Source: Nitrospirota bacterium
GTDB taxonomy: Bacteria > Nitrospirota > UBA9217
DNA length: 64,000 nucleotides
Direction: 5' to 3'
NCBI GenBank assembly: GCA_963740085.1
Contig: CAVUCU010000001.1
Span: 32,001 to 96,000, forward strand
A model generated the notes under the pieces. It was not told where the DNA came from. It ran no database searches and saw only the letters and a program-made list of their open reading frames with translations. This document shows positions 15,608-20,788 of the stretch, piece by piece; positions within the stretch are counted from its first letter, which is position 1, and the number at the start of each line of letters is the position of its first letter. The position numbers were made by a program, and so were the translations under genes.

Positions 15608-15790
15608 TCAGGATTTGCTTTCTTTTTTCTCTGAATCTTTTGTGTTTTCGCTGGTATCAGAGATACCCTTCTTGAACCCCTTGATGGCCTTTCCGAGCCC
15701 TTCGCCCAGCTGCGGAAGGCGGTTGGCGCCGAAAATAACCAATACGATAACCAATATGACTATCAGCTCCGGCATTCCAAGTCCAAACAT
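15608..15790 (-). CDS. tatA: Twin-arginine translocase TatA/TatE subunit
   Basis: [29 protein letters not shown]; GGAGG RBS. Confidence 0.95.
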
Positions 15791-16353
15791 GTTGCCTCCT
15801 TGTATTCCTCTGGCGTATTAAGATTCTTAAACGACCGCTGATCAGGATCAAAACGGGCGATCTCCGGTCCTGTAACATACCGCACTCGTGCATCACTATA
15901 AATACCCTGGATCTTTCGCGCGTCCCGGCTGAGCCGCTCTTCGATGACCGGCAGCAAACGCCGGTGATAGAACGCATGAAGCGGCTCGAGGTAGCCTGCA
16001 ACCATCGGCGCGACGATGTCATGGCCATTAGCAAGAGTGGCCATATACGCGATCAAACCGGGGTTCAGAAACGGCATGTCGCAGGCAACCACAAAATTAT
16101 AATCGTCCTGGGAATGCAGCAGGCCGGAATAGATGCCCGTGAGCGGTCCCTGCTTTTCAACAGCATCAGTGACCACAACAGCGTCGTACGAAACATACGA
16201 CGCCGGATCGTTGGTCACGATGATGATCCTCGAGAACACACCGCGGAGCGTCCTCAGAACATGCCCGATCAGAGGAATTCCGTCAAGCATGAGGAATGCC
16301 TTGTCCCTGCCCATTCGCCGGCTCTCGCCGCCTGAAAGCACAATACCAGTCAT
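15763..16353 (-). CDS. mobA: Molybdenum cofactor guanylyltransferase
   Basis: [39 protein letters not shown]. Confidence 0.93.
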
Positions 16354-16515: not shown

Positions 16516-16610
16516 TGGAGACTGGTTTCGGAATCGGACCGATAGCGAATCTTGCACGGTTGCCCGACAGGTTTGAAGCCTGCGGCCGGCTCCAGACGAC
16601 TGAACCAGTC
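16516..16610 (-). tRNA. Non-canonical tRNA with UCA anticodon, 8/4 acceptor/T fold, U73 and encoded CCA (selC*-like tRNA-Sec mimic, probably Cys-accepting)
   Basis: Manual fold: acceptor GACUGGUU/AACCAGUC + U-CCA; D arm GUCGUC-UGGA-GCCGGC; anticodon arm GCAGG-CUUCAAA-CCUGU; variable region of about 24 nt; T arm UCGG-UCCGAUU-CCGA. Confidence 0.88.
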
Positions 16611-16678: not shown

Positions 16679-17302
16679 TTATACCCACACGGTCTTTTCA
16701 AAATCCTGCATGCCTTCCACGACGATATTCATGGTGCCCCGGTGGCCGACGGCAAGTTTTGACTCAAGGTTATACTTCGTGAGACAGGTACCGCAGGAAT
16801 ATATCTCCACACCCATCTTTTCCATCTCTTGCAACAACCCTGCAATATCAACATCGGTTGTCGTCAGGTACACACCGGTGTTCAGAAAAAAGATCGTGTG
16901 TGGAAGCTGTTTATATACTTTCATTGTTTCAAAGAAGGCCTTCATCAGGGTCTTACCCAGGTACTCTTCCCTCCCCATGATATCGGACCCGACAATGAGA
17001 AGTAGCGACTTCTTCTGTGCCTCCTCACGTTTGACAGGTCCCATATCGAGGCGTGACTGCGGAGAGGCCTCTGATGACTGGACCTTGCAGTCGTATCCCT
17101 TGACGATTTTTACTCTCCAGTCCCTGCCCTCTTTTTTCGATTCGGCAAACAGCGCGTTCAGGACCGCAAACCCGGCGACATTCAGCGCCGACTCCTCGTT
17201 ATCGACTAGGACCTCGATAATTCCCTCCTTTATCTTTGAAAGCGCCTCCTCGGCCATCATCACCGGCTTGGGACATCCCTGCCCTCGTGCATCTATCTGC
17301 AT
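16679..17302 (-). CDS. yedF: Selenium metabolism protein YedF (TusA/SirA + DsrE domains)
   Basis: IDARGQGCPKPV (TusA motif) fused to LGKTLMKAFF...FLNTGV...SCGTCL (DsrE-like). Confidence 0.9.
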   Translation of the reverse strand: MQIDARGQGCPKPVMMAEEALSKIKEGIIEVLVDNEESALNVAGFAVLNALFAESKKEGRDWRVKIVKGYDCKVQSSEASPQSRLDMGPVKREEAQKKSLLLIVGSDIMGREEYLGKTLMKAFFETMKVYKQLPHTIFFLNTGVYLTTTDVDIAGLLQEMEKMGVEIYSCGTCLTKYNLESKLAVGHRGTMNIVVEGMQDFEKTVWV

Positions 17303-17334: not shown

Positions 17335-17813
17335 CTATGCAACCGTTCCACTTGTTGCCTCCGCGGCAAACAGCGCGGCGCCCACGGCCCCGACGAGGTC
17401 AGGCGTCGGAGGCACCAGAACGGCTACCTCGAGTTTCTCATGCAGAAGCCGGACCATGGCATGGTTCTTTGCAACACCGCCGGTGAATACGACCGTGTTG
17501 CCGCGTCCGAGACGATGCACATGGCGGCAAGCCGCTCGACGACGGACAGATGGACAGCCCTGCCGATGTCCCGGGGCGATGCGCCGTGGTTCTTGAGAGA
17601 GATCACCTCCGACTCGGCAAAGACCGTACACATGCTGTTCACCTTGATATCCGCGGTCCCCTTCAATGCCTCGTCGCCGAACTCAGAAAGCGGGATTCCC
17701 AGAGACGCAGCCATTATTTCGAGAAACCGCCCCGTGCCCGCAGCGCACTTATCGTTCATCTGGAAATTCACGACCTTGCCGCTCTCGTCAAGAGAAATGA
17801 CCTTCGAATCCTG
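17335..17813 (-). pseudogene. C-terminal half of an acyl-CoA dehydratase activase (HgdC/BadF ASKHA ATPase), 5'-truncated and frameshifted
   Basis: QDSKVI...MNDKCAAGTGRFLE...CTVFAESEVI, frameshift near 17520, then FTGGVAKN...GAVGAAL; N-terminal half absent. Confidence 0.85.
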
Positions 17814-18356
17814 TCAGCCCACGGGCACTTTTTTACATAACCCGGGAAATACCCGCCGTAACATATCATCACTAAGACGACTCTCCAGGGATTCTTCATA
17901 CTCTACAAGCATTCTCCGTTCCTCAAGAATGTCCCGGGGAGTGTCGTCCCCGGCTATATAATTCCCGTGCTCGATCCGGAGCGAGCCCTCCGCTGCGCTC
18001 AAATCGAATTTCATGCCCCGGTTCCGTTCTATCCACCTGAAACAATCATCATGAGTGCCCACATAGAGAAACGCAAGGTAGCCGTCTTTTTTTATGCAAA
18101 CAATGCGATACCCACATCCCAGGTCGATCTTCTTGCAGTTCTTGATCCGGGCTTCGCCTTTTCTGGTAAACCTGAACTTCTCCCGATCGCCCCGCTTGTC
18201 CCGATGCAAAAGGATGTCTATAAACTCATCGACTTTCCTCGCGGCAACAAGGCTTTCCCCACCCTTTGCCCTTAGAGCCTCAAGACATTTATCGAAGAGA
18301 GGCTCGCGGTAAAAAGTGACCGTATGTCCTCTATCTCCCGTGCAGAAATCCACCAT
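17814..18356 (-). CDS. Hypothetical protein, possible RelE/ParE-like fold
   Basis: 180-aa ORF; GYRIV...LYVGTHDDCFRW resembles RelE-like C-terminal strands (inference). Confidence 0.6.
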   Translation of the reverse strand: MVDFCTGDRGHTVTFYREPLFDKCLEALRAKGGESLVAARKVDEFIDILLHRDKRGDREKFRFTRKGEARIKNCKKIDLGCGYRIVCIKKDGYLAFLYVGTHDDCFRWIERNRGMKFDLSAAEGSLRIEHGNYIAGDDTPRDILEERRMLVEYEESLESRLSDDMLRRVFPGLCKKVPVG

Positions 18357-18365
18357 CGTTTCACC

Positions 18366-18857
18366 CTACCGATAACTATGCTGCGCGTTGCACAGCTCAA
18401 GAAATTCAATGAGCTCCTTCCGGATCGCTCTGCCTTTCTGCATGTCATCCGTAGAAAGCAGTTCCAGGAACAAGTCTCCTCCCTCAAGCACGATGGAATA
18501 ACGGGTGATCCCGTATCCTTCTTCGACAGTAAGGTTCTTTTCGATCAGGTTAACGTTATCAAACATCCCGAGCTGGAATGTCTTCTGTTTTTTGAAGAAA
18601 GAGAACCCTCCTGTCTTCTTTACCGTGCCGTCTCTGCGGTTGATCTCTATAACCGTGCCTGTCAGTCTCGATACTACAACGACGATAATGGCAGCTACAC
18701 TGAGAATTACAGGCCAGGGTGGTTCAACACTTCGACTGAACGCGATCATTAGAAGGAATGAAATCGCGAGTACGCCCAAAGCCACACAGAAAAGTTTCGT
18801 TCCTGGCTCATCCCTGTATGACCAGATGTTTTCCTGCGTAGTAAAATCCATAGCCAT
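18366..18857 (-). CDS. Hypothetical membrane protein (two TM segments)
   Basis: Two hydrophobic segments then a soluble domain; start uncertain (ORF track extends to 18935, overlapping the rhodanese gene). Confidence 0.55.
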   Translation of the reverse strand: MAMDFTTQENIWSYRDEPGTKLFCVALGVLAISFLLMIAFSRSVEPPWPVILSVAAIIVVVVSRLTGTVIEINRRDGTVKKTGGFSFFKKQKTFQLGMFDNVNLIEKNLTVEEGYGITRYSIVLEGGDLFLELLSTDDMQKGRAIRKELIEFLELCNAQHSYR

Positions 18858-18901
18858 GAAGTATTGGGCGCTATTTTGCTGCATCCCGTCTTTACCGCAC
18901 T

Positions 18902-19654
18902 TTACTGCACAACCGGCATCTTCGCCTCTTTCCATTCCGCAAAAAGTGCCTGGGCAATAGAGGGATAGGCGAGTTTCATGAGCTTTCGGTAGGCCATGTA
19001 GCTCCTTCCTCCGGTATTGCAGTAAACGATGATCTTCTTCTCTTTCGGCAGAACCTCAGACTTCAGAGCAAAACTCTCCGCGGGGATGTTGATCGCCGAA
19101 GGGATGTGCCCTTCCTTATATTCCGACTCATCCCGCACGTCCACAATAACGAAGTCCCTGTTGCCGCTATCGATCAGCTTCTTAAGATCAGAAGGACTGA
19201 CCTTTGTGGTTTCGATCTTTTTTGCATAATCGGGGCCGGGAACGATCGCATTGCCCTTCTCCTCCCACACAGGGAATCCATCAGCGTAAATGAGAATATT
19301 CTTGTATCCCATCGCGTCCGCTTTTTTTGCAGCTTTCCTGCTCTTACCGCATTTCACGCCGTTGCAGTAGAAGACCATCTGATGGTTCTTGTCCGAAGGG
19401 AGAAGTGAGGTGGATTCTTCCATGCTCTTTTCGGGGATACTCAGGGCGCCCGCGATATGGGCCTCCTGATATTCTTCCCTGGTTCTCGCGTCGATGAGCA
19501 TAAAGTCTTTTTTCTCATCCATCATTGCCTTGAGCTGGTCGGTCGTAACGACCTTGAACTCGATTTCCGCTCCGTGAGCGGATGAGAGCGCAGCTGCTAT
19601 CAGCAGAATTCCCGCGAAGAATAAAACATGCATGATCCTTCTCGTTCTGGGCAT
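18902..19654 (-). CDS. Exported tandem rhodanese-domain protein
   Basis: Signal peptide; two domains IDART...HIAGA...YCNGVKCGKS and VDVRD...HIPSAINIP...YCNTGGRS; AGGAGG RBS. Confidence 0.92.
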   Translation of the reverse strand: MPRTRRIMHVLFFAGILLIAAALSSAHGAEIEFKVVTTDQLKAMMDEKKDFMLIDARTREEYQEAHIAGALSIPEKSMEESTSLLPSDKNHQMVFYCNGVKCGKSRKAAKKADAMGYKNILIYADGFPVWEEKGNAIVPGPDYAKKIETTKVSPSDLKKLIDSGNRDFVIVDVRDESEYKEGHIPSAINIPAESFALKSEVLPKEKKIIVYCNTGGRSYMAYRKLMKLAYPSIAQALFAEWKEAKMPVVQ

Positions 19655-19858: not shown

Positions 19859-20752
19859 TCAAACTAATTTTGACTGGGATTTCAGGTGTTCCAGGAAGAG
19901 TTGATAGAGCCGTGGAAGAGAGCGTTTCTTGTGCGTTGCCACATAAAAACTTCTTTTCATCCGGATATTCGTGATCTTTATTTCTTTGAGCGTTTTGTGC
20001 TTTAATTCTTCTTCAACGGAATATTTCGATACGACTGCGATTCCCAGGCCAGCCTTGACAGCTTGCTTGACCGCATCGGTAGATCCGAAGACACCTGCGT
20101 GCAGCATGGTCTCCATGGAAAAGCCCTGGGCCTCTAATAATTTTTCAGCTTCCCGGCGGGTGCCCGACCCTTCTTCACGCATTACCATGGGATATTTTGA
20201 AAGGTCTTTCAGCTTTATGATGTTGCCTTTAACCATGGGAGGAGAGGACACAACGATCAGTTCATCCTCCATGAACGGTAGAGAGGATATTTGTGAGCTG
20301 TTCAGCCTCGCCCCAACCAGGCCCAGGAGAATTTCGTGCTGCAAGACCTTCTGCACAATCGCCTTCGAGTCGGATACGAGGATCTGAAACGACACCGCTG
20401 GATAAGTTTTTTTAAAGGTTGCCACCAGGGAAGGAAGCAAATAAGTGCCCGGTATCGAACTTGCGCCGATGATCAGTTCTCCGGCGACTTCTTTCTTGAA
20501 TTGACCGATAGCATGTCGGATGCCATCAGCCTTTTCGGTTACTTCGATGGCGTAATTGTACAGGACCTCGGCCTCACCCGTCGGGATGATCTTTCTCCCC
20601 AATCGTTCGAACAGCGTGCACTCGAGATAGTCCTCCAGGGATTTGATATGATCGCTGACGGTCGGCTGGCTGAGCCGCAACTCCCGTGACGCCTTCGAGA
20701 AGCTGCGGTTCCTGAATACGGAAAGGAATATCCTGAGGTGATGAATGTCCAT
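19859..20752 (-). CDS. LysR family regulator, CysL/selenium-metabolism-associated type
   Basis: SFSKAS...LSQPTVSDHIKSLE; GASSIPGTYLLP; REEGSGTR; start set at MDIHHL. Confidence 0.93.
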   Translation of the reverse strand: MDIHHLRIFLSVFRNRSFSKASRELRLSQPTVSDHIKSLEDYLECTLFERLGRKIIPTGEAEVLYNYAIEVTEKADGIRHAIGQFKKEVAGELIIGASSIPGTYLLPSLVATFKKTYPAVSFQILVSDSKAIVQKVLQHEILLGLVGARLNSSQISSLPFMEDELIVVSSPPMVKGNIIKLKDLSKYPMVMREEGSGTRREAEKLLEAQGFSMETMLHAGVFGSTDAVKQAVKAGLGIAVVSKYSVEEELKHKTLKEIKITNIRMKRSFYVATHKKRSLPRLYQLFLEHLKSQSKLV

Positions 20753-20758
20753 GGAATG

Positions 20759-20788
20759 ACAATAGCATCTCCGTTTACGATATGTCAA
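20759..20788 (-). promoter_or_regulatory. Promoter of lysR (leaderless arrangement)
   Basis: TTGACA-18 nt-TATTGT with TGn extension, ATG 6 nt downstream. Confidence 0.6.

What the first reader, a model, noticed from the sequence alone, without database searches (positions are those of the whole stretch)
16516..16610. Opal-reading tRNA with 8/4 fold, U73 and branched variable arm at the end of a selenium-associated operon
Seen: a complete 95-nt cloverleaf with a UCA anticodon and encoded CCA. The D arm is tRNA-Sec-like (6-bp stem with one mismatch, UGGA loop). The acceptor/T branch is 8+4 bp rather than the bacterial Sec 8+5, and the discriminator is U rather than the G typical of SerRS-charged tRNA-Sec. 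The T loop reads UCCGAUU (C at 55). The variable region folds as CGG-GCAA-CCG plus a second weak hairpin instead of one long arm. Established: U73 is a CysRS (and bacterial GlyRS) identity element, and 8/4 Cys-type tRNA-Sec mimics (selC*) are described from anaerobic bacteria as possible opal suppressors. Inference: co-oriented with LysR, rhodanese and yedF, it could form a regulated system that inserts Cys at UGA-Sec codons when selenium is scarce, bypassing SelA/SelD. Standard annotation would likely miss it or call it selC.
Basis: partly seen in the sequence, partly recalled or inferred. Interest (0 to 1): 0.92.

Follow-up and report, generated by a model that had tools for sequence, protein, structure and literature searches.

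The report
Cysteine-type look-alike of selenocysteine tRNA
This is a real second UGA-reading tRNA that resembles the selenocysteine tRNA but carries the end base typical of cysteine tRNAs, a kind already described (selC*/tRNAReC) and thought to insert cysteine where selenocysteine normally goes; here it sits inside a conserved selenium-metabolism operon.

Summary
The tRNA is real. It lies on the minus strand at 16516-16610 and is 95 nt long. It has a UCA anticodon, an 8/4 acceptor/T branch, a 6-bp D stem with a 4-nt loop, U73 and an encoded CCA. Rfam scores it as tRNA-Sec at 52.6 bits. ARAGORN misses it.

It is not the genome's selC. A canonical G73 tRNA-Sec lies beside selA and selB on another contig. 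selD carries an in-frame UGA.

Relatives occur in 22 of 64 genomes of this Nitrospirota class. Across 24 distinct sequences, 92.5% of stem cells pair and 13 of 31 pairs show compensatory changes. U73 and UCA are each kept in 23 of 24.

Covariation supports one long bulged arm. C55 is specific to a few lineages.

The tRNA sits in a LysR(selenium)-rhodanese-YedF operon. Other Nitrospirota carry a tRNASec-like tRNA-Cys(GCA) with U73 in the same slot.

It meets the published sequence criteria for selC*/tRNAReC (Mukai 2017). It lacks the delta-proteobacterial selB*/cysS* partners. Charging with Cys and delivery by SelB are inferred, not shown. I rate it a new member of a known kind, of moderate interest.

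The parts
16516..16610 (-). selC*/tRNAReC-type tRNA (G1 at 16610, A76 at 16516). It has an 8-bp acceptor stem, a 6-bp D stem with loop UGGA, and a 5-bp anticodon stem. The variable arm has 7 bp with one bulge. The T stem has 4 bp. U73 is followed by an encoded CCA.
   Evidence: - Rfam tRNA-Sec scores it 52.6 bits.
- Own model R1 scores it 117.5 bits, and R1 finds homologues in 22 of 64 genomes of the class.
- Covariation supports the fold.
- Contigs of two runs of one study reproduce the sequence with no difference inside it.
16574..16576 (-). Anticodon UCA, which reads UGA, within the loop CUUCAAA.
   Evidence: Direct reading. UCA is kept in 23 of 24 distinct homologues. The exception, L105, lacks the whole anticodon arm.
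16519..16519 (-). Discriminator U73.
   Evidence: U in 23 of 24 distinct homologues. Among this genome's 42 ARAGORN tRNAs that end in CCA, U73 occurs only in Cys (1), Gly (3) and Thr (3). Four tRNA-Ser and the canonical tRNA-Sec have G73.
16679..17302 (-). yedF: a fusion of TusA-like and DsrE-like domains, named selenium-metabolism protein YedF. Its stop lies 68 nt upstream of the tRNA 5' end.
   Evidence: Pfam TusA and DsrE. NCBIfam TIGR03527, 181.3 bits against a cut-off of 110.
17335..17813 (-). Remnant of an acyl-CoA-dehydratase-type activase gene. Only the C-terminal half is present, starting inside the GGQD motif, and its last part lies in another frame.
   Evidence: Read-through translation. 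The sister locus L015 has an intact 253-aa activase (TIGR00241, 242 bits) and a double-cubane reductase (NF040772, 494.5 bits) at this place.
17814..18356 (-). Conserved 180-aa protein of no named family. Its N-terminal ~100 aa is predicted to fold like RelE/YafQ. It recurs beside the tRNA in other genomes.
   Evidence: - No Pfam or NCBIfam hit.
- 115 homologues.
- AlphaFold2 model with pLDDT 72.3.
- Foldseek against the PDB gives a best E of 1.1e-4 and TM 0.70-0.75 on RelE/YafQ-type toxins.
- It neighbours the tRNA in L098, L099, L100, L102, L103, L040 and L043.
18366..18935 (-). 189-aa protein of unknown function. The hydrophobic stretch was judged by eye only.
   Evidence: ORF. No family at E <= 0.001. 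Conserved in L015 at 90% identity.
18902..19654 (-). Protein with two rhodanese domains.
   Evidence: Pfam Rhodanese, 2 stretches, 139.4 bits.
19859..20788 (-). Selenium-metabolism-associated LysR-family regulator, the first gene of the co-oriented cluster.
   Evidence: NCBIfam NF040786, 300.8 bits against a cut-off of 250. Pfam HTH_1 and LysR_substrate.
15763..16353 (-). MobA-like molybdenum-cofactor guanylyltransferase. It starts 162 nt downstream of the tRNA.
   Evidence: Pfam NTP_transf_3, 139.8 bits. Best NCBIfam matches are MobA models, all below their cut-offs.

Best explanation
This is a functional tRNA of the selC*/tRNAReC kind: a structural mimic of tRNA-Sec that carries the cysteine-type discriminator U73.

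Proposed mechanism (all steps inferred):
1. It is transcribed with, or next to, the LysR(selenium)-rhodanese-YedF operon.
2. It is charged with cysteine by the genome's single, ordinary CysRS, using U73 together with C35 and A36.
3. It pairs with UGA through its UCA anticodon.
4. Because UGA is also the commonest stop codon here, it most likely acts only at selenoprotein UGA codons, delivered by SelB with a SECIS element. Candidate targets are selD residue 14 and at least three molybdopterin oxidoreductases.
5. The result is Cys forms of selenoproteins, plausibly when selenium is short.

Shown here: the gene, its fold, its conservation and covariation, its identity marks, the coexisting Sec machinery and the operon linkage.

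Inferred: the charging amino acid, the elongation factor and the regulation.
For: Real, conserved tRNA:
- Rfam scores it as tRNA-Sec at 52.6 bits.
- Homologues occur in 22 of 64 genomes of the class, and in 12 of the 32 high-quality ones.
- On 24 distinct sequences 92.5% of cells pair, against 87.6 +/- 0.5% in shuffles (0 of 500 reach the observed value) and 30-50% with slid partners. 13 of 31 pairs change on both sides.

Identity marks:
- U73 is kept in 23 of 24 and UCA in 23 of 24, while position -1 varies freely.
- In this genome U73 belongs only to tRNA-Cys, tRNA-Gly and tRNA-Thr. Four tRNA-Ser and selC have G73.
- Of those three classes, only Cys shares two anticodon bases (C35, A36) with UCA. 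The anticodons are; the comparison is mine.

Separate Sec system:
- Canonical tRNA-Sec at C3:198420-198518 scores 66.7 bits and ARAGORN calls it SeC. selA is at C3:190328 and selB at C3:193452.
- selD has one in-frame TGA, at residue 14.
- 3 of 7 molybdopterin-oxidoreductase matches carry one in-frame TGA.

Same operon slot as a Cys-anticodon tRNA:
- In 6 of 69 YedF loci of other Nitrospirota, a ~95-nt tRNA lies between the selenium LysR and YedF or just upstream of the operon genes.
- ARAGORN calls it tRNA-Cys(gca), Rfam calls it tRNA-Sec (55-67 bits), and it ends in U-CCA.
- The UCA type in L019 occupies the identical LysR-tRNA-YedF position.

Operon linkage of the UCA type:
- 14 of 25 loci have YedF within 1.5 kb.
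- 6 more have rhodanese, LysR, the 180-aa protein or the activase.
- 5 have none of these. Every matched neighbour lies on the tRNA's strand except a second LysR-like gene in L096.

Published function of the kind:
- selC* tRNACys has U73 and a GCA or UCA anticodon, is found in Nitrospirae among others, and always coexists with selABCD. A Desulfococcus biacutus UCA form suppressed the selD UGA in E. coli when paired with an engineered CysRS variant (PMC5389517, sections 13 and 17 read).
- tRNAReC decodes UGA as Cys with SelB and SECIS (Vargas-Rodriguez 2018, seen only as cited in passages of PMC13582414 and PMC11415595).

UGA remains a stop codon:
- TGA closes 874 of 1899 open frames of 300 codons or more.
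Against: - No aminoacylation, expression or proteomic data exist for this tRNA.
- G34, a major CysRS identity element according to PMC5389517, is replaced by U.
[quoted passage not shown] Here the first pair is G1:C72, and the only CysRS is a 509-aa enzyme with DALR_2 and a weak CysS_C match.
- A long variable arm with U73 is also compatible with SerRS according to the same paper (section 13).
- The branch is 12 bp (8/4), the length EF-Tu accepts, so dependence on SelB is not assured.
- The window copy has two pair-breaking substitutions (linear positions 15 and 61) that are absent from the sister species. ARAGORN fails on it.
- Distribution is patchy. The tRNA was not found in 42 of 64 genomes, including two of the same genus that are 99-100% complete.
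- The promoter and terminator scan found no more sites than expected by chance, so it gives no evidence on transcription.
Confidence: 0.6

Rival explanations
1. It is a serine-accepting 8/4 tRNA of the allo-tRNA type. SerRS charges it through the long variable arm. The Ser-tRNA is then either converted to Sec by SelA, making it a second tRNA-Sec, or it inserts Ser at UGA.
For: - The fold matches the published allo-tRNA description better than the delta-proteobacterial selC* description: a true 8/4 branch without the A51a bulge, and a 6-bp D stem with a tetraloop (PMC5389517 section 13).
- That paper states that a long variable arm with G73 or U73 suggests Ser identity.
- It also reports allo-tRNAs beside toxin-antitoxin genes (section 16). 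A protein with a RelE/YafQ fold is a recurrent neighbour here.
- The tRNASec-like D arm is what SelA is recalled to recognise (recalled, not tested).
Against: - Four tRNA-Ser and the canonical tRNA-Sec of this genome have G73, while this tRNA keeps U73 in 23 of 24 sequences.
- In the paper's own test only the G73 allo-tRNA variant inserted Ser (section 15).
- Allo-tRNA anticodons are highly diverse (35 codons, section 14), whereas this family keeps UCA.
- The same operon slot holds a GCA-anticodon, U73 tRNA in other Nitrospirota.
- Allo-tRNAs were reported from Clostridia, Proteobacteria and Acidobacteria, not from Nitrospirae.
Confidence: 0.2
2. The family is functional, but the window's own copy is impaired or decaying along with its operon.
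For: - The copies in L084 and L085 are 100% identical to each other (95 of 95), although their yedF genes are only 79.7% identical.
- The window copy differs from both at 5 positions. Two of these break pairs, one in the D stem and one in the variable arm.
- ARAGORN finds the L015 and L019 copies but not the window copy.
- The adjacent double-cubane reductase is lost and the activase is reduced to a frame-shifted remnant.
- Degenerate copies exist elsewhere. L105 lacks the anticodon arm, and L017/L108 have a poor anticodon stem.
Against: - The acceptor stem, anticodon stem and loop, T arm, U73 and CCA are all intact.
- 5 changes in 95 nt is proportionally about half the 9.6% nucleotide divergence of the neighbouring yedF, so constraint persists.
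- Single mismatches in D and variable stems are common in working tRNAs (general knowledge).
- yedF, LysR and the rhodanese gene are intact.
Confidence: 0.12
3. It is a non-translational tRNA-like element of the operon, for example a processing or stability signal, or a partner of the RelE-fold protein.
For: - It always lies inside or at the edge of the same gene cluster and on the strand of nearly all its matched neighbours, but its position within the cluster varies.
- Some published irregular tRNAs were charged but not used in translation (PMC5389517 section 16).
Against: The anticodon triplet, U73, the encoded CCA (19 of 24) and the T-loop consensus are all conserved together with full cloverleaf covariation. 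This is what is expected of a decoding tRNA and is more than a processing signal would need.
Confidence: 0.08

Closest known systems
selC* tRNACys, also called tRNAReC (Mukai et al. 2017, NAR, PMC5389517; Vargas-Rodriguez et al. 2018, RNA Biol, not held here)
   Same: - tRNASec-like shape: 8-bp acceptor stem and long variable arm.
- U73 and a UCA anticodon.
- Found in an anaerobe-type lineage of Nitrospirae.
- Coexists with a complete selA/selB/selC/selD set.
- Picked up as a tRNA-Sec 'false positive'.
- It also meets the operational rule used in PMC13582414: at least 80 nt, UCA or GCA anticodon, discriminator U.
   Different: - No selB* or cysS* downstream.
- G1:C72 rather than the A1:U72 that accompanies UCA in the Desulfobacterales type.
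- A plain 8/4 branch without the A51a bulge.
- One bulge in the variable arm.
- Embedded in a LysR(selenium)-rhodanese-YedF operon. 'yedF' and 'yedE' do not occur in the main text of that paper.
tRNASec-like tRNA-Cys(GCA) with U73 in the LysR-YedF operons of other Nitrospirota MAGs (found here: L027, L031, L034, L040, L043, L048)
   Same: - Same operon slot, downstream of the selenium LysR and upstream of YedF.
- About 95 nt, with the U73-CCA end, a UGGY D loop, a long variable arm and a C.C juxtaposition closing the anticodon stem.
- Rfam tRNA-Sec scores of 55-67 bits.
   Different: - GCA rather than UCA anticodon.
- 5-bp T stem (read by eye) and no 2-nt linker after the acceptor stem in the model alignment.
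- Only 38-46 bits against the UCA-type model.
- They could therefore be distant orthologues, or the UCA type could be a non-orthologous replacement.
Canonical bacterial tRNA-Sec (selC; Rfam RF01852)
   Same: UCA anticodon, long acceptor stem, 6-bp D stem with a 4-nt loop, and a long variable arm. It scores over the Rfam gathering threshold.
   Different: U73 instead of G73, and 8/4 instead of 8/5. The genome has its own G73 selC beside selA and selB, which scores higher (66.7 bits).
(8/4) allo-tRNA (Mukai et al. 2017)
   Same: A true 8/4 branch of 12 bp, a tRNASec-like D arm and a long variable arm. U73 is allowed. It also shares the neighbourhood of a toxin-fold gene.
   Different: The anticodon is fixed at UCA rather than diverse. 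The context is a selenium operon. The phylum is Nitrospirota. A Cys-anticodon counterpart occupies the same slot in other genomes.

Membership tests
selC* tRNACys / tRNAReC | tRNASec-like architecture (8-bp acceptor stem, long variable arm) detected by the tRNA-Sec covariance model | tested here: met
   RF01852 scores 52.6 bits against 47. The 8-bp acceptor helix is 97.4% paired and the 7-bp variable arm 91.6% paired on 24 sequences.
selC* tRNACys / tRNAReC | Discriminator U73 | tested here: met
   U at 16519. U in 23 of 24 distinct homologues.
selC* tRNACys / tRNAReC | Anticodon GCA or UCA | tested here: met
   UCA at 16574-16576. Kept in 23 of 24.
selC* tRNACys / tRNAReC | Coexists with a complete Sec system (selA, selB, canonical selC, selD) | tested here: met
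   for the window's genome. SelA was found in 20 of the 22 genomes that hold the tRNA, but also in 55 of all 64, so this is not discriminating within this class.
selC* tRNACys / tRNAReC | Charged with cysteine by CysRS | not testable with these tools
   Only indirect evidence: U73, C35 and A36; a single canonical CysRS; and a GCA-type counterpart in the same slot.
selC* tRNACys / tRNAReC | Delivered by SelB to UGA codons followed by a SECIS element | not testable with these tools
   One selB is present. The 12-bp branch leaves use by EF-Tu open.
Delta-proteobacterial opal subtype (selC*-selB*-cysS*) | selB* and cysS* (without anticodon-binding domain) downstream; A1:U72; A51a bulge | tested here: not met
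   - Only one SelB-wing_3 locus and one CysRS locus in the genome.
- The CysRS has DALR_2 and a weak CysS_C match.
- The first pair is G1:C72 or G1:U72 in 24 of 24, and the T stem has no bulge.
- The gene downstream of the tRNA is MobA-like.
Canonical bacterial tRNA-Sec | G73 and a 13-bp (8/5) acceptor/T branch; the sole UCA tRNA next to the sel genes | tested here: not met
   It has U73 and an 8/4 branch. A separate G73 tRNA-Sec lies beside selA and selB.
(8/4) allo-tRNA | 8/4 branch with a tRNASec-like D arm | tested here: met
(8/4) allo-tRNA | Ser (or Ala) identity with diverse, mostly sense anticodons | tested here: inconclusive
   The anticodon is fixed at UCA in 23 of 24, unlike the published diversity. 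There is no G3:U70; the third pair is C:G in 24 of 24. Ser identity could not be tested.

The most novel reading that the evidence does not exclude
The LysR(selenium)-tRNA-YedF module may be a selenium-sensing switch of the genetic code.
- When selenium is short, the regulator would co-induce the opal-reading Cys tRNA with sulfur/selenium-relay proteins (rhodanese, YedF). In many genomes the module also includes a ribosome-nuclease-fold protein.
- Selenoprotein UGA codons, including that of selD itself, would then be re-read as Cys.
- This would need only the housekeeping CysRS and SelB, with no dedicated synthetase or factor.
- The module would be ancient in Nitrospirota, with a GCA-anticodon form in one class and a UCA form in another.
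Probability: 0.25. Interest if true: 0.75.

Novelty: new member of a known kind. Interest (0 to 1): 0.42.

Why it matters
- Genomes of this class carry two 'tRNA-Sec' calls. Unless the U73 copy is told apart, selenoproteome predictions are ambiguous, because a UGA may yield Sec or Cys.
- The tight, conserved placement of the tRNA next to a selenium-associated LysR regulator and YedF gives a concrete and testable handle on an open question: when and why cells use tRNAReC/selC*.
- This family also shows that an opal-anticodon form can exist without the dedicated CysRS*/SelB* pair described in delta-proteobacteria. That raises the question of how an ordinary CysRS would accept U34.

Tried and rejected
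- **A UGA codon served by the tRNA inside the operon.** Reading TGA through joins the 180-aa ORF to an activase-like sequence (17424-18356). I rejected this. The 180-aa protein is a full-length member of a family of about 175 aa (115 homologues). The downstream part is the C-terminal half of an activase that is intact in sister locus L015, and its tail is frame-shifted. No in-frame TGA is needed in the rhodanese, YedF, double-cubane reductase or activase genes of L015.
- **Gly or Thr identity.** These are the other U73 classes in this genome. I set them aside because the anticodon shares only C35 with Gly anticodons and none of the last two bases with Thr anticodons. This is an inference.
- **A 9-bp acceptor stem with an A1:U72 pair**, as the Rfam alignment draws it. 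I rejected this because position -1 varies freely and the encoded CCA fits the reading G1...U73.
- **MFE and RNAalifold folding** of the single sequence or of 5 sequences did not return a cloverleaf. I relied on counting the named structure instead.
- **UCA type outside the class.** In a phylum sample of 151 genomes the only match outside the family, G069, is an ordinary G73 tRNA-Sec. The class-level search covered the same 64 genomes as the order-level search. GCA-type tRNAs were not recovered by these stricter-filtered genome searches, so their true frequency is unknown.
- **Promoter and terminator scan.** It found no more sites than in shuffles, so it gives no evidence either way.
- **Expression.** No RNA holder was listed for the stretch, so nothing can be said about expression.
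- **Reads laid on the stretch.** Only DNA contigs of 4 runs of one study were available. Those of X1 and X3 cover the tRNA with no difference inside it. X1 may be the sample the assembly came from.
- **Literature limits.** The 2018 tRNAReC paper (PMC6103700) is not held. The supplements of PMC5389517 (Table S1, Figures S1 and S8-S13) were closed, and they may already list these sequences and loci. I found no statement of it, which is not proof that none is in print.
- **tRNAscan-SE** is not available here.
Full report
**1. What is there**

On the minus strand, 16610 to 16516, lies a 95-nt tRNA. Rfam's tRNA-Sec model is the only family over threshold in the whole 64-kb window, at 52.6 bits against a gathering score of 47 (E 9.1e-08). 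ARAGORN reports no tRNA in the window.

Read directly, the tRNA has these parts:
- an 8-bp acceptor stem starting at G1:C72, followed by a 2-nt linker
- a 6-bp D stem with one U.C mismatch and loop UGGA
- a 5-bp anticodon stem closed by a C.C juxtaposition, with loop CUUCAAA (anticodon UCA)
- a 23-nt variable region
- a 4-bp T stem with loop UCCGAUU
- U73 and an encoded CCA

42 of the 43 tRNAs that ARAGORN finds in this genome also encode CCA. This supports the reading G1...U73-CCA over the 9-bp stem drawn by the Rfam alignment.

**2. It is a conserved gene, and the fold is supported**

A covariance model built from the window copy and three relatives (R1) finds matches in 22 of 64 genomes of the window's order. 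That is 12 of the 32 genomes that are at least 90% complete, and 10 of 19 genera. The class-level search covered the same 64 genomes.

In a phylum sample of 151 genomes, strong matches lie only in the window's family (10 of 27 besides the window's genome). The one outside match, G069, is an ordinary G73 tRNA-Sec.

I realigned 27 matches, 24 of them distinct. On these, the cloverleaf I named gives:
- 92.5% of cells paired, against 87.6 +/- 0.5% in shuffles (0 of 500 reach the observed value) and 30-50% when partners are slid
- 13 of 31 pairs with changes on both sides, against a shuffle mean of 5.8

The alignment was fitted to R1's helices, which favours those helices. The variable-arm helix was not in R1. 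It is nevertheless 91.6% paired, with 4 of its 7 pairs changing on both sides.

The variable region is therefore one long arm: 7 bp, a single bulged base on the 3' strand and a 6-nt loop.

Other points from the same alignment:
- The sixth anticodon-stem pair is unpaired in 17 of 24.
- The outermost T pair is unpaired in 7 of 24.
- A fifth T pair is impossible in 11 of 24, so 8/4 is the consistent reading.
- U73 is kept in 23 of 24 and UCA in 23 of 24. The exception to both is L105, a remnant without an anticodon arm.
- CCA is encoded in 19 of 24.
- Position -1 varies freely.
- The T loop is UUCGAUU in 18 and UCCGAUU in 5, so C55 is lineage-specific.

**3. It is not the genome's selC**

The genome is 3.46 Mb in 7 contigs and 98.5% complete. 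It has a better tRNA-Sec at C3:198420-198518, which scores 66.7 bits, is called tRNA-SeC by ARAGORN and has G73.

That tRNA-Sec lies next to selA (C3:190328-191425) and selB (C3:193452-193589, the only SelB-wing_3 match).

selD (C1:750805-751725) has one in-frame TGA, at residue 14. Three of 7 molybdopterin-oxidoreductase matches also carry one in-frame TGA.

There is one CysRS. It is 509 aa, with DALR_2 and a weak anticodon-binding-domain match.

TGA closes 874 of 1899 long open frames. UGA is therefore an ordinary stop here, and a free suppressor would be costly.

**4. Context**

All neighbours are co-oriented on the minus strand. In order they are:
- a selenium-metabolism LysR (NF040786, 300.8 bits against a cut-off of 250)
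- a protein with two rhodanese domains
- a 189-aa protein of unknown function
- a 180-aa protein of no named family
- an activase remnant
- YedF (TIGR03527, 181.3 bits against 110)
- 68 nt of spacer, then the tRNA
- 162 nt of spacer, then a MobA-like gene, followed by recJ and relA/spoT

In the sister locus L015, an intact double-cubane reductase and its activase stand where the window has the 180-aa gene and the remnant.

Across 25 loci holding the UCA type, each with 1.5 kb on either side:
- 14 have YedF
- 6 more have rhodanese, LysR, the 180-aa protein or the activase
- 5 have none of these

Every matched neighbour lies on the tRNA's strand, except a second LysR-like gene in L096.

Among 69 YedF loci of other genomes, R1 finds 4 UCA-type and 6 further tRNAs. 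ARAGORN calls those 6 tRNA-Cys(gca) and Rfam calls them tRNA-Sec at 55-67 bits. They end in U-CCA and sit just downstream of the selenium LysR and upstream of YedF. The UCA type in L019 occupies exactly that slot.

This positional equivalence with a tRNA carrying both the Cys anticodon and the Cys discriminator is my strongest indirect argument for Cys identity.

**5. What is known**

Mukai et al. 2017 (PMC5389517; I read the abstract and sections 13-17 and searched its main text) described selC* tRNACys as follows:
- tRNASec-like, with U73 and a GCA or UCA anticodon
- found in Firmicutes, Thermodesulfobacteria, Nitrospirae and Proteobacteria
- always accompanied by selABCD
- with phylum-specific secondary structures

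In Syntrophobacterales and Desulfobacterales a selB* follows selC*. In a Desulfobacterales subgroup, the UCA type has A1:U72 and a CysRS* without an anticodon-binding domain. A UCA form suppressed the selD UGA in E. coli when given an engineered CysRS.

Passages of PMC13582414 and PMC11415595 cite Vargas-Rodriguez 2018, which is not held here. According to them, tRNAReC is the same as selC*, and it decodes UGA as Cys through SelB and SECIS rather than EF-Tu.

By the operational rule in PMC13582414 (at least 80 nt, UCA or GCA anticodon, discriminator U), the window's tRNA is a tRNAReC.

It differs from the delta-proteobacterial opal subtype in having G1:C72, no bulge, no selB* and no cysS*. Structurally it is as close to the paper's (8/4) allo-tRNA description as to selC*. 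That paper notes that a long arm with U73 may allow serylation, which keeps the Ser/Sec rival alive.

**6. State of the window copy**

The L084 and L085 copies are identical to each other (95 of 95), although their yedF genes are only 79.7% identical. The window copy differs from both at 5 positions. Two of these break pairs, one in the D stem and one in the variable arm. ARAGORN finds the relatives' copies but not this one.

Contigs of two runs of one study show the same letters, so the differences are not an assembly slip.

Five changes in 95 nt is still proportionally fewer than in the neighbouring yedF (90.4% identity). I therefore read this as mild relaxation rather than a dead gene.

**7. 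Verdict**

The interpretation matches a published kind.

The mechanism remains inference: Cys charging by the ordinary CysRS, and SelB-restricted reading of selenoprotein UGA codons, expressed with a selenium-regulated operon. My confidence in it is about 0.6.

What this case adds:
- a new lineage
- an opal form without dedicated partners
- a conserved LysR-tRNA-YedF module spanning the window's class (UCA form) and other Nitrospirota lineages (GCA form)

I could not find that module in the main texts I searched. The closed supplements may show it.

Noticed in passing
window 17814-18356 (-): A conserved 180-aa protein with no Pfam or NCBIfam family has 115 homologues, mostly Nitrospirota and some Acidobacteriota. 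Its N-terminal ~100 aa is predicted to fold like ribosome-dependent RelE/YafQ/HigB nucleases (pLDDT 72.3; Foldseek best E 1.1e-4; TM 0.70-0.75 on the targets). It has a helical C-terminal extension. It recurs next to both the UCA-type and the GCA-type tRNA. A role at stalled UGA codons is speculation.
   Followed up: partly
window 17335-17813 (-): A pseudogene remnant of an acyl-CoA-dehydratase-type activase. It begins with a TGA at the second Gly of the GGQD motif, and its last ~45 residues lie in another frame. Sister locus L015 has the intact activase and a double-cubane-cluster reductase at this place.
   Followed up: yes
L031, L043, L027, L048, L034, L040 (tRNA coordinates): tRNASec-like tRNA-Cys(GCA) genes of about 95 nt with U73, placed between the selenium LysR and YedF in other Nitrospirota MAGs. 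They are presumably the Nitrospirae selC* of the literature. Their fold (8/5 by eye, with no 8-9 linker) was not tested by covariation.
   Followed up: partly
L105 (G005:C35:4742-4823); L017 and L108 (the L108 copy is G027:C220:30198-30291); L107 (G049:C3:325140-325234): These are degenerate or second copies of the UCA-type tRNA. L105 lacks the whole anticodon arm and has A73. L017 and L108 have a poorly paired anticodon stem. L107 has a D-stem deletion. Three genomes (G027, G036, G049) hold two copies. In G036 the second copy lies about 10 kb from selA.
   Followed up: no
G000:C3:9433-9522: A second tRNA-Ser(UGA) scores 49.8 bits against the tRNA-Sec model. It is the only ARAGORN tRNA of the genome without an encoded CCA.
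   Followed up: no
G000:C1:1079976-1080929 and C5:397108-398168: YedE-type (Sulf_transp) genes are present but lie far from yedF. One of them appears to be split into two adjacent frames.
   Followed up: no
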